From contig JAHPZA010000009.1 in the NCBI GenBank assembly GCA_019058445.1, forward strand, positions 729,023-793,022: 64,000 bases of DNA. The letters are read 5' to 3'. Below, in pieces: positions 10,247-48,253 of the stretch. Under the pieces are notes generated by a model that did no database searches, was not told where the DNA came from, and saw only the letters and a program-made list of their open reading frames with translations. Source of the DNA: Promethearchaeota archaeon. Its GTDB lineage: Archaea > Asgardarchaeota > Lokiarchaeia > Sigyniarchaeales > SOKP01. How positions within the stretch are numbered: the first letter of the stretch is position 1; each line of letters starts with the position of its first letter. Made by a program: the position numbers and the translations under genes.

Positions 10247-11548
10247 ATGTTAGGTGATATTAGTGATGAAGTAGCAAATGAGCTACTCGCTTATTTTTCG
10301 AAAAGTATGATCGGTAATATTATAATTCGAGATGCTTCCTTGGAAAGTAAAATCTTTCCGGTAATGCATTATATTAATACGGCGTGCTATATCTTATACG
10401 ATCAATCTTATCAATATAATATCTTGAAAAAAGTAGCCAGTGAGATATCCCCTGAGGATATTGCTAAAAGATCTAAAACCTTATGTTCACCTCTAAATCA
10501 GTTGGCTTTTTATTCTATTGCTATGCTTTATTTACAAGGTCGAGCAGCTACGATTCATGATAATCTCTACAAGAAAAGGTCCAATCCAAATTTAGATATA
10601 GAACCTGAAAATAAGAAGAAAGAAACTAAATTCATCCTTGATTTTTGGAGAAGATTAAGTCCTAACTACCGCAACGATGGAGCTTTAACGGCAGAAAATA
10701 AACATATTGTGTTTCTTTCTGATGAGTATATTAATTCATTAAGGGATGAAATGATTCCTATTAAAGATAATAGAGAGATTATCACAAAACTTAGACAAAC
10801 CATTGCTCATTTAACTATTTTTAACTTCCTTTTTCAGGGGGAATGTAGGGCGGGAATTTCTGAACATGGGCCATACTATTTTGAAGGAGATCCAGATGCG
10901 TTAATATTCAAAGAATTTCAATTTCTCTATACAGGTAAAAAGATTTTTGGAATAGACTACTCTGATTTTATGTGGCAAAAAATCACTAAGCCATCACCAA
11001 TTCCTAATGTAATCTTCGGAATGACACTCAAGAATATGAATAAAATAGAATTTAATGATTGGGGAACATTATTTGCTGATCCAGCTGAGTGGCATTCCAA
11101 TATAACATCAATAGGTATTTGGACAAAAGAACAAATTCATCCAAAAGAATTACGTTATCCAAACAAAATGGGGTCAATAAAACCGCTTTCACTCAAAATT
11201 TTAGATGAATTAAGCGAATTTGCAAAAAGAGGTACCAAGGAACTTTATGTTGATTACTCCAAGTGGGATTTTACTAAGAAATTAATGCTTGGTACTAGCA
11301 ATTATGCCAATAGTTGCATGGCATTATGTGCCGGGTATGCAGGAATAGAAAATGAATTTAATTGGACATGGGCTAGAGACTATGCTGCGGGTAAATCCCT
11401 TAAGACAGATTTATTAGATAAAGAAAGAATAACGGAGTATATTGAGCATTTGAAAAGATGGAACGGAGGTCACCCATTTATGCAGCGCGTAATGAGAGGT
11501 AGAAAGATCCAAAAAACTGATCCCTTTTATTATTTTTTACAAGATTAA
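10247..11548 (+). CDS. Hypothetical protein (433 aa)
   Basis: Long ORF with normal composition; no family recognised. Confidence 0.7.
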   Translation: MLGDISDEVANELLAYFSKSMIGNIIIRDASLESKIFPVMHYINTACYILYDQSYQYNILKKVASEISPEDIAKRSKTLCSPLNQLAFYSIAMLYLQGRAATIHDNLYKKRSNPNLDIEPENKKKETKFILDFWRRLSPNYRNDGALTAENKHIVFLSDEYINSLRDEMIPIKDNREIITKLRQTIAHLTIFNFLFQGECRAGISEHGPYYFEGDPDALIFKEFQFLYTGKKIFGIDYSDFMWQKITKPSPIPNVIFGMTLKNMNKIEFNDWGTLFADPAEWHSNITSIGIWTKEQIHPKELRYPNKMGSIKPLSLKILDELSEFAKRGTKELYVDYSKWDFTKKLMLGTSNYANSCMALCAGYAGIENEFNWTWARDYAAGKSLKTDLLDKERITEYIEHLKRWNGGHPFMQRVMRGRKIQKTDPFYYFLQD

Positions 11549-12534
11549 TCCCGTGTTGAGATTAGATATTCCGAAATACCATCTCCTTGTTTCCCCTCAC
11601 ATGTAAAAATTGCTACCTGTTCAAAAATTTCAGTTAAACCTGTACGAGATTTGAGAGGTAAGTACTTGGAAAAAATCGTTTTTGACTCTAATGATTTTTC
11701 CTTTCCTTCCTTATCCGTCAAAATAAATATTGAGGACACAGGTGTTTTTCCATCTTCTTCTGTTTTTGTAGAAACTTCTACTTTTTCTATTATCACATTT
11801 TCTTTTCCCTTAGTATAAATTACTCCAGATTGAGGGGCTTTTCCTAAGAGGTCAGATTTAACAAAATTAATAGTCTGCTCTTCAAATTGAGCAGAAACCC
11901 AATTCCATCCATCAATTTGGACCCATTTCCTAATTCCCCAGCTGTGATCACGGTGGCCGTATCCTTTAATTTTTCGAGTTTCATAGATCTCACCTCTTTT
12001 CATCAAATCCAGAGTACCAGTTGCTAGCATAGGTTGTTCATAATGCTCTTGAGCTGCAATTTTGAGTAGTTCCTCACCATATTTTTCAAGAATCTTTTTG
12101 GGGTTTTCAATCTCAGCTAAATTAAATACTGGAAAGCGTCCCTGAAAATTAATGTCTAATTTAATTTTTTTATCTTTATATTTAACGCTCCATTCATTCA
12201 TTGGTTTTATACAGTAGTATTTTAGCTTATTATCAAATTCCCAGTTGGCGGGTATTTTTTCAAGGGGGACCTCATTATAATAGCTATTATCCTTGCCATC
12301 AACAATTAACAGCATTAATAATCGTGACTTGTTTTTATCCATATGTAGCGATAATCTAGTAATAAAGTACACATTATTTGGGCGATCAATAAAATTAAAG
12401 TACCAACTTTCGTTATGATATTGCGGGAATTTCCCTAATTCTTTTTCAAAATCATGAAAAAATTCATCCTTTTCGGACATTGGAACCCTATTCTTAATTA
12501 ATTTCTCTAAGTCAATATCATCTGACATTAACAT
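11545..12534 (-). CDS. Tocopherol-cyclase/CrtC-like beta-barrel protein
   Basis: NESWYFNF, HYEQ and GHRDHSWGIR.W motifs. Confidence 0.7.
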   Translation of the reverse strand: MLMSDDIDLEKLIKNRVPMSEKDEFFHDFEKELGKFPQYHNESWYFNFIDRPNNVYFITRLSLHMDKNKSRLLMLLIVDGKDNSYYNEVPLEKIPANWEFDNKLKYYCIKPMNEWSVKYKDKKIKLDINFQGRFPVFNLAEIENPKKILEKYGEELLKIAAQEHYEQPMLATGTLDLMKRGEIYETRKIKGYGHRDHSWGIRKWVQIDGWNWVSAQFEEQTINFVKSDLLGKAPQSGVIYTKGKENVIIEKVEVSTKTEEDGKTPVSSIFILTDKEGKEKSLESKTIFSKYLPLKSRTGLTEIFEQVAIFTCEGKQGDGISEYLISTRD

Positions 12535-41290: not shown

Positions 41291-41899
41291 ATGACGGAAA
41301 AACCGATTGAAAAGAGTCAAATAGAAGGAATTATAGAAGGTAATAAAGTTATTATTTCTGATAAAGAAGGAATTGAAGATTTCTATAAAACTTCATATAT
41401 TGGAACACTTGAAAAAGATACGAATAATCAGGATATATTGATTTTAGAGCCAATGGAAGTCCTTCTTTTATGCGAGAGGCGAAGAATATTATTATGGGAA
41501 AACAATGATAAAAATAAAGCTCAATATGATTTCGAAAAACTCTTAGAATATTTCACTCAAAATGATGATAGATTATGGCATAAATATATCATCTATATGG
41601 ACTTACGAAAAAGAGGTTACATCGTTAGAACTGGTTATGGTGATGGCATAGAATTCCGCGTGTTCAAAAGAGGTGCTAACTTTGAAGAAGATTCTGCCAA
41701 ATTTTTAATATATCCCGTGTATGAGGGGAGTCCTATAGAATTGAAAGATTTAGATAGGATCTCCAGAGTTGCGATGAGTTCTCGCAAAGATCTTATAGTA
41801 GCTACTGTTGATAGGTTAAGTAAACCAATATATTACAGTGTGAAAAAATTCCAAATATTAAACATTGAAGGTAGTGAAAAAAAACAAAATGCAAGATAA
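41291..41899 (+). CDS. endA: tRNA-splicing endonuclease subunit, probably non-catalytic structural type
   Basis: L.PME, Y.DLRKRGYIVRTG, RVA...RK.LIVA.VD and IYY motifs; catalytic Tyr and His positions appear substituted. Confidence 0.88.
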   Translation: MTEKPIEKSQIEGIIEGNKVIISDKEGIEDFYKTSYIGTLEKDTNNQDILILEPMEVLLLCERRRILLWENNDKNKAQYDFEKLLEYFTQNDDRLWHKYIIYMDLRKRGYIVRTGYGDGIEFRVFKRGANFEEDSAKFLIYPVYEGSPIELKDLDRISRVAMSSRKDLIVATVDRLSKPIYYSVKKFQILNIEGSEKKQNAR

Positions 41900-46406: not shown

Positions 46407-47198
46407 TTAATCTTTCTCTATTAAATCTTTTACTTTTTCAATGATTGGAGGCAGAACATCTATAATATCATCAAAGAATCTTAAATCTGCTACTCTATCA
46501 TAGGGTGTTTCTCCTCTATTTAAAATTATGAGTTTAGAACCCGATTGTTTCGCAATCCCCGGCATATTAGCCGCAGGGGTTACGACTAGAGAAGATCCAA
46601 TTACAAAAAACACATCTGAAGCTTCAGACCTCCTCATAGATTCATATAATTCATCTTCTGGCAGAGGATCTCCGAAATTTACTATACTATTAATTATCCT
46701 CCCCCCGCACTGCGGACATTTTGGCTGACCATCCTTAATTCCATCTGTTCTATATCCTTTTCCCCATTTATTCTTATCCCATCCTGCCTCTTCGAAAAGC
46801 ATTTTTTTATTACATTGTAGGCATTTCATGTAGTACATGTTTATGGCATATGATGAATACTATCATATGTTTCCATGAAGTTCTGCCAGCTTTTCAAAGG
46901 GGATCCCTGATTTCGCATGAAGCCCGTCAACATTCTGAGAAATTAAGTAGTCTAATTTCCCAATTTTCAATAATTCTACAATAGAAAAGTGAGCGATATT
47001 TGGTTTTACTTGGTCCCATGGAGGGGATTTTGGAGGAGGTAGCCCTGCATCCCTACGAGTCCACACTCCATCCGGTCCACGATAATCTGGTAGACCACTA
47101 TGAGTGGAAACTCCTGCTCCAGTAAAGACTACGAGTTGTTCAGATTCAGCAATCCATTTTGCTGCTAAATCGATTTTTTCTTTAAGTTCTGGTTCCAT
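46407..47198 (-). CDS. Sir2-family NAD-dependent deacylase interrupted by a 30-nt putative intron; join of 47198..46871 and 46840..46407 gives 253 aa
   Basis: The two ORF-track pieces are in the same frame and colinear with the intact paralog; no other lesion seen. Pseudogene is the alternative reading. Confidence 0.8.
46841..46870 (-). other. Putative bulge-helix-bulge-type mRNA intron (30 nt)
   Basis: mRNA reads AUGG-AA^A-CAUAUGAU-aguauuc-AUCAUAUG-CCAU-AA^A; contains in-frame UGA UAG; removal restores CAU GGA AAC AUG. Confidence 0.75.
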
Positions 47199-47339: not shown

Positions 47340-48110
47340 TTAGCGTGCATGATCCACCCCTACCATTTCTTTAACTTTTTCTACAATAGGAGGTAATACA
47401 TCAGCAATAGAATCAGAGAACCTCAAATCAGCTATATTGTCATATGGGGTTTCTCCTTGGTTGAGAATGATTAATTTCGCACCACTTTGTCGAGCAAGAC
47501 TAGGCATATGTGCTGCAGGATATACTACTAAAGATGACCCTATAACGAAAAATACATCACTTTCTGCTGATCTTCTCATTGATTCTTGTAAATCATCTTG
47601 GGGTAATGGGTCTCCAAAATTAACAATACTATTAATTAACCTTCCTTCACAATCCGGACATCTTGGGTGTCGTTTTCGTGGTTTTGACATTCGAAATCCC
47701 ATTCCATGTAGTCGTCTATTCCATCCTGCTTCTTCAAATGTTAACTTTTTTCCACAACCTAAACATCTCATAAGTTGCATATTTCCGTGTAATTCTGCAA
47801 GTTTTTCAAAGGGGATACCAGATTTTATGTGAAGCCCATCTATATTTTGGGATATTAAATAATCTAGCTTTCCCATTTCTAATAACTCTACTATTAAATA
47901 ATGAGCGATGTTAGGGTTAACTTTATCCCATGGAGGAGACTTAGGAGGGGGTAGACCAGCATCTCTCCGAGTCCACAGCCCATCTGGGCCACGAAAGTCA
48001 GGTAATCCGCTATCTGTGGATATACCCGCCCCGGTAAATATTACTAGTCGTTCAGATTCGGCAATCCATTTTGCGGCTAAATCTATTTTTTCTTTAAGAT
48101 CTGATTCCAT
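47340..48110 (-). CDS. Sir2-family NAD-dependent deacylase, intact copy (class IV / SIRT6-7-like); probable start ATG 48110
   Basis: [30 protein letters not shown], two CxxC, GSSL and LN motifs. Confidence 0.93.
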   Translation of the reverse strand: [256 protein letters not shown]

Positions 48111-48253
48111 AGTACACAAATAAAATAACTATTAATAAAAACATATTGTAATTAGTTAAAAAGAACCTAATTAAAAAGATATCCTACATTAAAATCAAAA
48201 AAATTAATTAATACTTGTATAACTATATAATAAAATCACGGAAGGAATTTAAA

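What the first reader, a model, noticed from the sequence alone, without database searches (positions are those of the whole stretch)
46841..46870. Candidate bulge-helix-bulge intron inside a protein-coding (sirtuin) mRNA of an Asgard archaeon
Seen in sequence: the minus-strand mRNA reads CUU C-AUGG-AAA-CAUAUGAU-AGUAUUC-AUCAUAUG-CCAU-AAA-CAUGUAC. AUGG (46876-73) pairs with CCAU (46846-43) as a 4-bp central helix, each strand is followed by AAA, and a perfect 8-bp stem closes the insert. The insert carries in-frame UGA UAG. Established: archaeal splicing endonucleases cut after the second nucleotide of each 3-nt bulge. Applying that rule (46871/46870 and 46841/46840) removes exactly 30 nt and gives L-H-G-N-M, matching the intact paralog. 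The insert sits just after the catalytic His-Gly, and both exons are otherwise intact. Inference: this is a tRNA-type spliced mRNA intron like the crenarchaeal cbf5 introns, here in a lineage and gene where I know of no report; pipelines would call it a pseudogene. Caveats: the outer exon-exon helix is imperfect, so the motif is the relaxed bulge-helix-loop form, and the flanking AAACAU direct repeat also fits a mutational duplication.
Basis: partly seen in the sequence, partly recalled or inferred. Interest (0 to 1): 0.95.

Follow-up and report, generated by a model that had tools for sequence, protein, structure and literature searches.

The report
Spliced tRNA-type intron in sirtuin gene
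A 30-base insert that breaks a sirtuin gene of an Asgard (Promethearchaeota) archaeon has the RNA shape cut by the tRNA-splicing enzyme and is kept, with compensating base changes, in at least seven related lineages whose gene is otherwise intact, so it is very probably a spliced intron in a protein-coding message, a kind published so far only for the crenarchaeal cbf5 gene.

Summary
Window 46841-46870 (minus strand) is a 30-nt, stop-bearing insert in the second of two tandem sirtuin genes. It folds as a 4-bp helix, 3-nt bulge, 8-bp hairpin, helix, 3-nt bulge. The handedness matches an archaeal bulge-helix-bulge (HBh') motif.

The intron reading is supported by comparison, not by RNA data.
- The same insert sits at the same codon in 7 further contigs from other samples and assemblies, with lengths of 30, 29 and 27 nt.
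- Every change in a helix keeps the pair: two compensatory changes and one wobble. The loop varies freely.
- All checked exons are open. dN/dS among intron-bearing copies is 0.06-0.15, at dS from 0.4 to above 2.
- I checked seven more genes of this genome with inserts of the same architecture: six of 30 nt and one of 29 nt.
- In a conserved EF-2-like gene, 24 of 143 related genomes carry 25 such 30-nt inserts at five sites.
- The genome encodes EndA (in this window) and RtcB.

Still missing are a spliced transcript, and a second EndA subunit was not found. This scan has already noted such mRNA introns on other DNA and elsewhere in this genome. In print I found only cbf5.

The parts
46841..46870 (-). 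30-nt BHB (HBh') intron, defined by the cuts 46871/46870 and 46841/46840
   Evidence: It is a 30-nt gap against the paralogue and the orthologues. The same insert occurs in 7 other contigs.
46871..47198 (-). Exon 1 of the sirtuin gene (ATG at 47198; 109 codons plus 1 base)
   Evidence: Pfam SIR2, profile positions 58-105 of 180. Translation.
46407..46840 (-). Exon 2 of the sirtuin gene (2 bases plus 143 codons plus the stop)
   Evidence: Pfam SIR2, profile positions 108-180 of 180. The spliced product is 253 aa.
46873..46876 (-). Central helix H, 5' strand (AUGG, in the exon)
   Evidence: Pairs with CCAU. All 4 pairs are kept in all 5 aligned variants, one through U-A to U.G.
46843..46846 (-). 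Central helix H, 3' strand (CCAU, in the intron)
46870..46872 (-). 5' bulge AAA, cut after the second base
   Evidence: The cutting rule is from PMC2738675.
46840..46842 (-). 3' bulge AAA, cut after the second base
   Evidence: The 3' bulge is AAA in 6 of 11 unrelated family members.
46847..46869 (-). Intron hairpin h': 8-bp stem (46862-46869 with 46847-46854) and 7-nt loop
   Evidence: There are two compensatory pairs across lineages. Loop length varies from 4 to 7 nt.
47340..48119 (-). Intact upstream sirtuin paralogue (259 aa), without an insert
41291..41899 (+). The only EndA (tRNA-splicing endonuclease) homologue found in the genome; presumed enzyme for the cut
   Evidence: Pfam PF01974 at 2.9e-18 and PF02778 at 2.5e-06. 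It is the single hit in the genome.

Best explanation
The 30 nt at 46841-46870 are an archaeal bulge-helix-bulge intron of the relaxed HBh' class inside the sirtuin pre-mRNA.

Proposed mechanism:
1. Exon bases AUGG pair with intron bases CCAU to form the 4-bp central helix.
2. Each strand then carries a 3-nt bulge, and an 8-bp intron hairpin closes the motif.
3. The splicing endonuclease EndA, encoded 5 kb away in the same window, cuts after the second base of each bulge.
4. RtcB, encoded on contig C1, joins the exons. The 30-nt intron is released, probably as a circle.
5. The joined message encodes an intact 253-aa sirtuin, ...LAELHG-NMYYMKC....

Shown here: the structure, its conservation and covariation, the intact and constrained exons, the family of like inserts, and the presence of the enzyme genes.

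Inferred: the cleavage, the ligation, and the activity of the product.

The intron is old. It is shared by lineages at dS of about 1-2. It is absent from some close orthologues, through loss or repeated gain.
For: 1. Geometry and junction. The helix is 4/4 and both bulges are 3 nt. The stem has 8 bp. The cut rule restores exactly the orthologous peptide. The chance of such a fold in a shuffled insert is 5e-5.

2. Same site, other lineages. Contigs L106/L107, L108, L109, L110/L111, L112, L113 and L121 come from other samples and assemblies. All carry the insert after CATGGAA. They represent 7 distinct intron sequences.

3. Covariation. In the 5-sequence alignment, 60 of 60 cells pair. Two pairs change on both sides (C-G to U-A, G-C to A-U) and one by wobble. 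Registers slid by 1-3 columns pair in only 10-50% of cells. All other intron changes lie in the loop or at the stem apex beside it.

4. Length varies irrespective of reading frame: 30, 27 and 29 nt. The 29-nt copy puts the exons in different frames, and the cut rule restores HGNMYFMKC.

5. Exons are alive. All six full-length intron-bearing copies are open after removal (251-258 aa). Pairwise dN/dS is 0.06-0.15 at dS from 0.37 to above 2. Against intron-less orthologues it is 0.04-0.075.

6. Family in this genome. Same-shaped inserts split single Pfam domains in an OYE-type reductase, an EF-2-like GTPase and an AMP-ligase. They restore conserved motifs of chlD, gyrB and GH38 genes. A 29-nt one lies in a second AMP-ligase. 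Eleven unrelated inserts, taken from this genome and from the EF-2 genes of relatives, pair in 92.3% of cells in one fixed register. Slid registers give 34-41%.

7. EF-2-like orthologue. It is 60-94% identical to the G000 protein across 143 genomes. It carries 25 inserts in 24 genomes at 5 sites. All are 30 nt with a full 4-bp helix. The 18-sequence site alignment has 95.9% of cells paired and 2 compensatory pairs, and 0 of 500 shuffles reach its score.

8. EndA and RtcB are encoded. Asgard EndA is reported as the broad-specificity (alpha-beta)2 type with the L1 loop (PMC5829648).
Against: - No RNA evidence. Neither scan of public metagenome contigs gave a spliced copy. The six contigs with a contiguous junction are only 69-78% identical to the intron-bearing lineages, so they are intron-less homologues.
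- The outer exon-exon helix is missing (C.C next to the bulge), so cleavage needs an enzyme that accepts relaxed motifs.
- Only one EndA homologue was found in this 92.6%-complete genome, with no beta subunit.
- The folding energy is not exceptional.
- In this 31%-GC genome a structure-only census shows little or no excess over decoys. The motif alone is therefore not diagnostic.
- The sirtuin covariation rests on 5 sequences, and 24 of 500 shuffles reach it.
Confidence: 0.87

Rival explanations
1. A disabling insertion. The 30 nt are a mutational insert or duplication, or a small mobile-element scar with an AAACAT target duplication. The downstream sirtuin is then a pseudogene that the upstream paralogue makes dispensable.
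For: There are in-frame UGA and UAG codons and a 6-nt direct repeat. An intact paralogue lies next door. The insert is absent from the three GTDB orthologues of the genus and from several near relatives.
Against: The insert persists at one site in lineages separated by dS 0.4 to above 2. The exons are intact and omega is 0.06-0.15. Helix changes are compensated. The direct repeat is not conserved. There is no other copy of the sequence in the genome. The same shape recurs in conserved genes such as the EF-2-like gene and gyrB.
Confidence: 0.02
2. Programmed translational bypass, as in T4 gene 60 or the mitochondrial byp elements. The ribosome takes off at AAC (or AUA) before the stop and lands on the matching codon 30 nt downstream, with the hairpin helping. 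No RNA is cut.
For: In the sirtuin, matching AAC...AAC and AUA...AUA codons flank the gap, a stop follows closely, and a hairpin starts at the take-off site. The AAC hop would give the same LHGNM product.
Against: Other family members lack a take-off and landing pair that would give the conserved protein. One example is the EF-2 site GAU|...AAA|GAC. In all 25 EF-2 inserts the BHB cut rule restores the conserved sequence exactly. What is conserved is exon-intron base pairing with 3-nt bulges, which bypass does not require. Bypass is unknown in archaea (my own knowledge).
Confidence: 0.03
3. A BHB-shaped element that is cut, but not as constitutive splicing. Splicing could be partial or conditional, so that sirtuin output is gated by EndA/RtcB activity. 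Alternatively the cut could mainly destabilise the message.
For: The motif is relaxed, with no outer helix. Unspliced RNA would give a 111-aa product that ends just after the catalytic His. An intron-less paralogue sits beside it. In Haloferax, removal of a 5' UTR BHB intron affects expression (PMC7714728).
Against: Nothing in the sequence calls for regulation. The strong purifying selection on exon 2 shows that joined product is made often enough to matter.
Confidence: 0.07
4. An assembly or sequencing artefact of this genome.
For: Read support cannot be inspected here.
Against: Independent assemblies from ENA, Logan, JGI and NCBI carry the insert.
Confidence: 0.005

Closest known systems
BHB intron in the cbf5 pre-mRNA of Crenarchaeota (Watanabe 2002; Yokobori 2009, PMC2738675)
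   Same: It is a short intron inside a protein-coding sequence. It has a mostly relaxed BHB motif and is cut between bulge bases 2 and 3. It lies next to a catalytic residue. It is gained and lost among relatives, and annotation pipelines mistake it for a frameshift or a split gene.
   Different: The host gene is a sirtuin and the phylum is Asgard/Promethearchaeota. It is one of many same-shaped inserts of about 30 nt spread over unrelated genes of one genome. For cbf5, splicing was shown experimentally. Here it is inferred.
Non-canonical tRNA introns of Asgard archaea (PMC11291895; preprint 10.64898/2026.10.13.758758)
   Same: The motif classes are the same (hBHBh', HBh', hBH). The presumed enzyme is the same. 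The lineages are ones with heavy intron loads.
   Different: The host RNA is an mRNA with no tRNA body to help recognition. I did not compare these introns with this genome's own tRNA introns. Aragorn found only 23 tRNA genes.
BHB intron in the 5' UTR of Haloferax volcanii HVO_1309 (PMC7714728)
   Same: It is an mRNA substrate of the splicing endonuclease. Cleavage was confirmed in vitro and by circRNA-seq.
   Different: It lies in the UTR, not the coding sequence, and is 46 nt long. The euryarchaeal enzyme needs a strict BHB.
Translational bypass elements (T4 gene 60; byp elements of Magnusiomyces mitochondria; from my own knowledge)
   Same: They are short stop-bearing inserts with a hairpin and matching flanking codons, in otherwise intact genes.
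   Different: Those are skipped by the ribosome. They need no exon-intron helix with 3-nt bulges. The family here does not keep matching codons.
HAC1/XBP1 unconventional splicing (IRE1 plus RtcB or tRNA ligase; from my own knowledge and PMC13149111)
   Same: It is protein-only cutting and re-joining of an mRNA at small stem-loops, with a tRNA-type ligase.
   Different: The nuclease and the motif are different, and it is a regulated stress switch in eukaryotes.

Membership tests
Archaeal BHB intron (EndA/RtcB-spliced) | [quoted passage not shown] | tested here: met
   AUGG/CCAU with bulges AAA and AAA. The register is that of the published classifier. The 4 pairs are kept in all variants.
Archaeal BHB intron (EndA/RtcB-spliced) | At least one flanking helix of 2 or more bp (h' in the intron, or h between the exons) | tested here: met
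   h' has 8 bp, and 9 bp in L112, L113 and L121. The outer helix h is absent (C.C, then isolated pairs). This gives the HBh' class, not the strict hBHBh'.
Archaeal BHB intron (EndA/RtcB-spliced) | Cuts after bulge base 2 give a functional junction | tested here: met
   The cuts restore LAELHGNMYYMKC, identical to the intron-less orthologue. They also restore the frame in the 29-nt and 27-nt variants.
Archaeal BHB intron (EndA/RtcB-spliced) | Structure maintained by selection (covariation among homologues) | tested here: met
   100% of cells pair, with 2 compensatory pairs and 1 wobble. Slid registers give 10-50%. The sample is small: 24 of 500 shuffles reach the score.
Archaeal BHB intron (EndA/RtcB-spliced) | Host gene stays functional while carrying the insert | tested here: met
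   dN/dS is 0.06-0.15 among six intron-bearing copies, and all are open after removal.
Archaeal BHB intron (EndA/RtcB-spliced) | Host encodes the splicing endonuclease and an RtcB-type ligase | tested here: met
   EndA at window 41291-41899. RtcB at C1:114713-116020, E = 2.6e-172.
Archaeal BHB intron (EndA/RtcB-spliced) | Endonuclease of a broad-specificity type ((alpha-beta)2 with L1 loop, or epsilon2), as a relaxed motif requires | tested here: inconclusive
   Only one EndA homologue was found, with no beta subunit. The literature assigns (alpha-beta)2 plus L1 to Asgard archaea.
Archaeal BHB intron (EndA/RtcB-spliced) | Spliced RNA and excised (circular) intron observed; cleavage in vitro | not testable with these tools
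   No spliced copy was found among public contigs. CircRNA-seq is known to miss circles of about 30 nt (PMC7714728).
cbf5 intron family | Located in cbf5 at the catalytic Asp codon, in Desulfurococcales or Sulfolobales | tested here: not met
   The host is a SIR2-family gene of a Promethearchaeota genome, going by the names sources give to the nearest homologues. It works like a cbf5 intron but is not a member of that family.
Programmed translational bypass element | Matching take-off and landing codons, with a stop right after take-off, conserved across the family | tested here: not met
   The sirtuin has matching AAC and AUA codons. The EF-2 members have no pair that would give the conserved protein.
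Transposon or MITE insertion | Repeated copies in the genome, terminal inverted repeats and a conserved target duplication | tested here: not met
   There is no second copy in the window or the genome. The direct repeat is not conserved.

The most novel reading that the evidence does not exclude
Promethearchaeia (Loki-type Asgard archaea) carry a family of uniform mini-introns. Each is about 30 nt: a 4-bp exon-intron helix, two 3-nt bulges, and an 8-9-bp hairpin with a 4-7-nt loop. These introns are gained, kept for long periods and lost in ordinary protein-coding genes. I checked at least 8 genes in this genome and 5 sites in one EF-2-like gene across the order. If so, cutting and re-joining of messenger RNA by the tRNA-splicing enzymes is a routine step of gene expression in the closest prokaryotic relatives of eukaryotes. 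Shared insertion contexts may also point to a site-specific way of spreading. One example is CATGGAA| in both the sirtuin and the EF-2 gene of G012, which share the same ATGG/CCAT helix.
Probability: 0.6. Interest if true: 0.9.

Novelty: new member of a known kind. Interest (0 to 1): 0.8.

Why it matters
- In the papers I could search, splicing of an archaeal coding sequence by the tRNA endonuclease is reported for one gene only, cbf5 of Crenarchaeota. PMC7714728 says so in 2020. PMC2738675 notes that other cases were only predicted.
- Papers on Asgard introns deal with tRNA genes.
- A conserved, selected intron in a sirtuin gene, as one of many in the same genome, would show that protein-only mRNA splicing is common in the lineage nearest to eukaryotes.
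- It gives a concrete substrate set for testing the range of Asgard EndA.
- It gives a dated case of intron persistence and loss.
- It warns that annotation pipelines split or discard such genes. Public records call this one as 111-aa and 136-145-aa fragments.

Tried and rejected
1. Structure-only census of the genome. I looked for BHB motifs whose removal merges two open frames, with parallel-pairing, mirror and slid-register decoys. There was no clear excess. At L = 30 with all 9 stem pairs there were 6 hits, against 0-2 in the slid registers. Adjacent genes and AT-rich hairpins swamp the signal. The other hits in this window are pairs of complete neighbouring genes: two thiolases, and DUF1847 plus a neighbour.

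2. My first conclusion, that the insert is unique to G000 and recent, was wrong. Exact look-up of the truncated exon-1 product found other carriers (onward).

3. Stops flagged inside other sirtuin matches in relatives are just terminal stops.

4. Search for a spliced copy. Two metagenome scans and a protein search for full-length forms found only intron-less homologues. These are at most 87% identical in DNA (L076), and 69-78% for the contigs of the second scan.

5. Search for a second EndA subunit with Pfam models and with the protein itself found nothing. The one weak hit lies across two unrelated ORFs with no likeness to EndA.

6. Aragorn finds only 23 tRNA genes, 19 of them with putative introns. 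I could not compare these introns with the genome's tRNA introns.

7. A donor copy of the intron elsewhere in the genome: none found.

8. The gene tree is too poorly resolved to decide between one gain with losses and repeated gains.

Full report
WHAT IS THERE

On the minus strand the window holds two tandem SIR2-family genes. The upstream one (47340-48119) is intact. The downstream one is split into open frames of 114 and 143 aa. Aligning the two genes shows a single difference in layout: 30 extra bases in the downstream copy, right after the catalytic His-Gly codons. They carry in-frame TGA and TAG.

The predicted fold of the region contains the AUGG/CCAU helix, the AAA bulge and the perfect 8-bp stem. 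The energy itself is unremarkable (z = -1.13).

The two Pfam matches abut: SIR2 profile positions 58-105 in exon 1 and 108-180 in exon 2.

IS THE SHAPE THE RIGHT ONE?

In a BHB motif the 4-bp helix strand lies 5' of the 3-nt bulge on both strands. That is how the classifier of a recent Asgard tRNA-intron preprint defines it. It is also what the canonical 37/38 tRNA intron requires (established knowledge). The candidate has this handedness.

It has a full central helix, two 3-nt bulges and an intron helix, but no outer exon-exon helix. This makes it the HBh' class. Cuts between bulge bases 2 and 3 follow the rule stated for cbf5 (PMC2738675). They remove 46870-46841 and give LAELHG-NMYYMKC, identical to an intron-less orthologue.

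I shuffled the 30 nt in place. A full helix plus at least 8 of 9 stem pairs arose 10 times in 200,000.

THE SAME INTRON IN OTHER LINEAGES

The three species representatives of the genus lack the insert. So do several environmental relatives, the nearest being 87% identical in DNA. At first this made the insert look recent.

The exact 111-aa product of exon 1, however, sits in a protein cluster whose four members all have 111 residues. Further truncated products of 109-111 aa exist.

Their contigs, plus one found by a pattern scan, carry an insert at the same place, after CATGGAA:
- L109: the same intron sequence, with exons 91% identical to G000.
- L110 and L111: the loop has changed.
- L106 and L107: a stem G-C has become A-U, and the helix U-A has become U.G.
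- L108: a 27-nt version.
- L112: a 9-bp stem with a UUUUU loop.
- L113: the first stem pair C-G has become U-A.
- L121: a 29-nt version with a 4-nt loop.

In the 5-sequence ungapped alignment all 60 cells pair. Two pairs change on both sides and one changes by wobble. Slid registers pair in 10-50% of cells. Because the sample is small, 24 of 500 shuffles reach the score. Every other substitution lies in the loop or at the stem apex next to it.

The 29-nt copy puts exon 2 in another frame: the two open frames 10898-11236 and 11233-11691 overlap. The cut rule restores HGNMYFMKC. Length variation that ignores the reading frame is what an excised segment allows.

THE GENE IS ALIVE

After removal of the insert all six full-length intron-bearing copies are open (251-258 aa). 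Their pairwise dN/dS is 0.06-0.15 at dS from 0.37 to above 2. Against intron-less orthologues the window's gene has dN/dS of 0.04-0.075.

The gene tree is poorly resolved. Intron-bearing and intron-less rows are interleaved, and one origin is not excluded. The history is therefore either one old gain with losses or repeated gains. The introns are alike in sequence, which favours common descent.

A FAMILY OF LIKE INSERTS

Searching the genome's long open frames against the genome itself picks out stop-bearing insertions by homology alone. Three strong cases emerged: an OYE-type reductase, an EF-2-like GTPase and an AMP-dependent ligase. Each has a 30-nt insert with the same helix-bulge-hairpin-helix-bulge layout, and removing it restores the paralogue's motif. 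The halves match consecutive parts of one Pfam domain. A second AMP-ligase has a 29-nt, frame-shifting one.

Three leads from earlier notes of this scan (chlD, gyrB, GH38) were checked here. All have 30-nt inserts that restore MNPEEGELRPQ, LEGVRKRPAMYIG and HWDREW.

Eleven unrelated inserts, from this genome and from the EF-2 genes of relatives, share one register. They are about 36% identical to one another. They pair in 92.3% of cells, against 34-41% when slid. All 44 central-helix pairs form, and the 3' bulge is AAA in 6 of 11. gyrB and one EF-2 site also lack an outer helix, so the sirtuin is not unusual in that respect.

THE EF-2-LIKE GENE AS AN INDEPENDENT TEST

This gene has an orthologue in 143 of 154 genomes of the order, 60-94% identical to the G000 protein. 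Twenty-four genomes carry 25 inserts, which I found only through extra length and internal stops. All 25 are 10 codons long. All fold with a full 4-bp helix and 3-nt bulges at five sites: H|IDHG, AHID|HG, DHG|K, MTD|SDD and DSD|DEE. In every case the cut rule restores the conserved protein.

The 18 copies at one site pair in 95.9% of cells and have 2 compensatory pairs. No shuffle out of 500 reaches their covariation score, and slid registers give 28-48%.

A gene this conserved cannot be a pseudogene in a sixth of the genomes, so such inserts must be removed. They offer no take-off and landing codon pair that would give the conserved protein, which speaks against ribosomal bypass.

ENZYMES

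One EndA homologue, with both Pfam domains, lies at window 41291-41899. RtcB is on contig C1. No second EndA subunit was found. Published work assigns Asgard archaea the (alpha-beta)2 type with the L1 loop that accepts relaxed motifs (PMC5829648; preprint). That point stays open for this genome.

WHAT IS NOT SHOWN

No spliced RNA was found. Two metagenome scans and a protein search found only intron-less homologues.

A structure-only census of this AT-rich genome does not separate real introns from decoys. The motif alone would therefore not have been convincing. The weight lies on the comparative data.

COMPARISON AND NOVELTY

The insert works like the cbf5 intron of Crenarchaeota but is not a member of that family. 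As far as I could search, coding-sequence BHB introns are in print only for cbf5, and a 5' UTR case exists in Haloferax.

This scan has already noted such introns on other DNA and in this genome. I used those notes as leads and tested four of them.

Verdict: a real feature, and a new member of a known kind. My odds that it is a spliced intron are 87%.

Noticed in passing
window 41291-41899 (+): The genome's only detectable tRNA-splicing endonuclease gene (202 aa, with both Pfam EndA domains) lies about 5 kb from the intron-bearing sirtuin. No beta subunit was found anywhere in the 92.6%-complete genome.
   Followed up: partly
window 46827-46839 (-): Directly after the 3' bulge, exon 2 can form a small hairpin (CAUGU-ACU-ACAUG) in the predicted fold. 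It might stand in for the missing outer helix by stacking. This is untested.
   Followed up: no
L057:701-749 (EF-2-like gene of G012): Its 30-nt intron sits after the same exon bases as the sirtuin intron (CATGGAA|). It uses the same ATGG/CCAT helix and the same AAA 3' bulge, although the genes are unrelated. This may hint at a preferred insertion context.
   Followed up: no
L098 (EF-2-like gene of G060): One gene carries two 30-nt BHB inserts about 100 nt apart, one at H|IDHG and one at DSD|DEE.
   Followed up: partly
G000 C10:652107-652778 (-): A partial second copy of the EF-2-like gene (residues 537-760, 97% identical) lies 30 kb from the full gene.
   Followed up: no
whole genome G000: Aragorn recognises only 23 tRNA genes in 4.6 Mb, 19 of them with putative introns. 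This fits the heavily interrupted tRNA genes reported for Asgard archaea.
   Followed up: no
L114:1201-1488 and L115:811-1098: A 95-aa sirtuin N-terminal remnant sits next to an Eco57I/TaqI_C-type restriction-modification gene in another Promethearchaeota assembly. It is probably a truncated gene and is unrelated to the intron.
   Followed up: no
L110:1201-2007: This intron-bearing sirtuin has an exon 1 that is 95% identical to the window's, but a much more divergent exon 2. It sits near the outgroup in the tree. Recombination at or near the intron is possible.
   Followed up: no
L117-L120, L122, L123: Six intron-less sirtuin homologues (69-78% identical in DNA) have the contiguous sequence CATGGAAACATGTA, which is the empty form of the splice junction.
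   Followed up: partly
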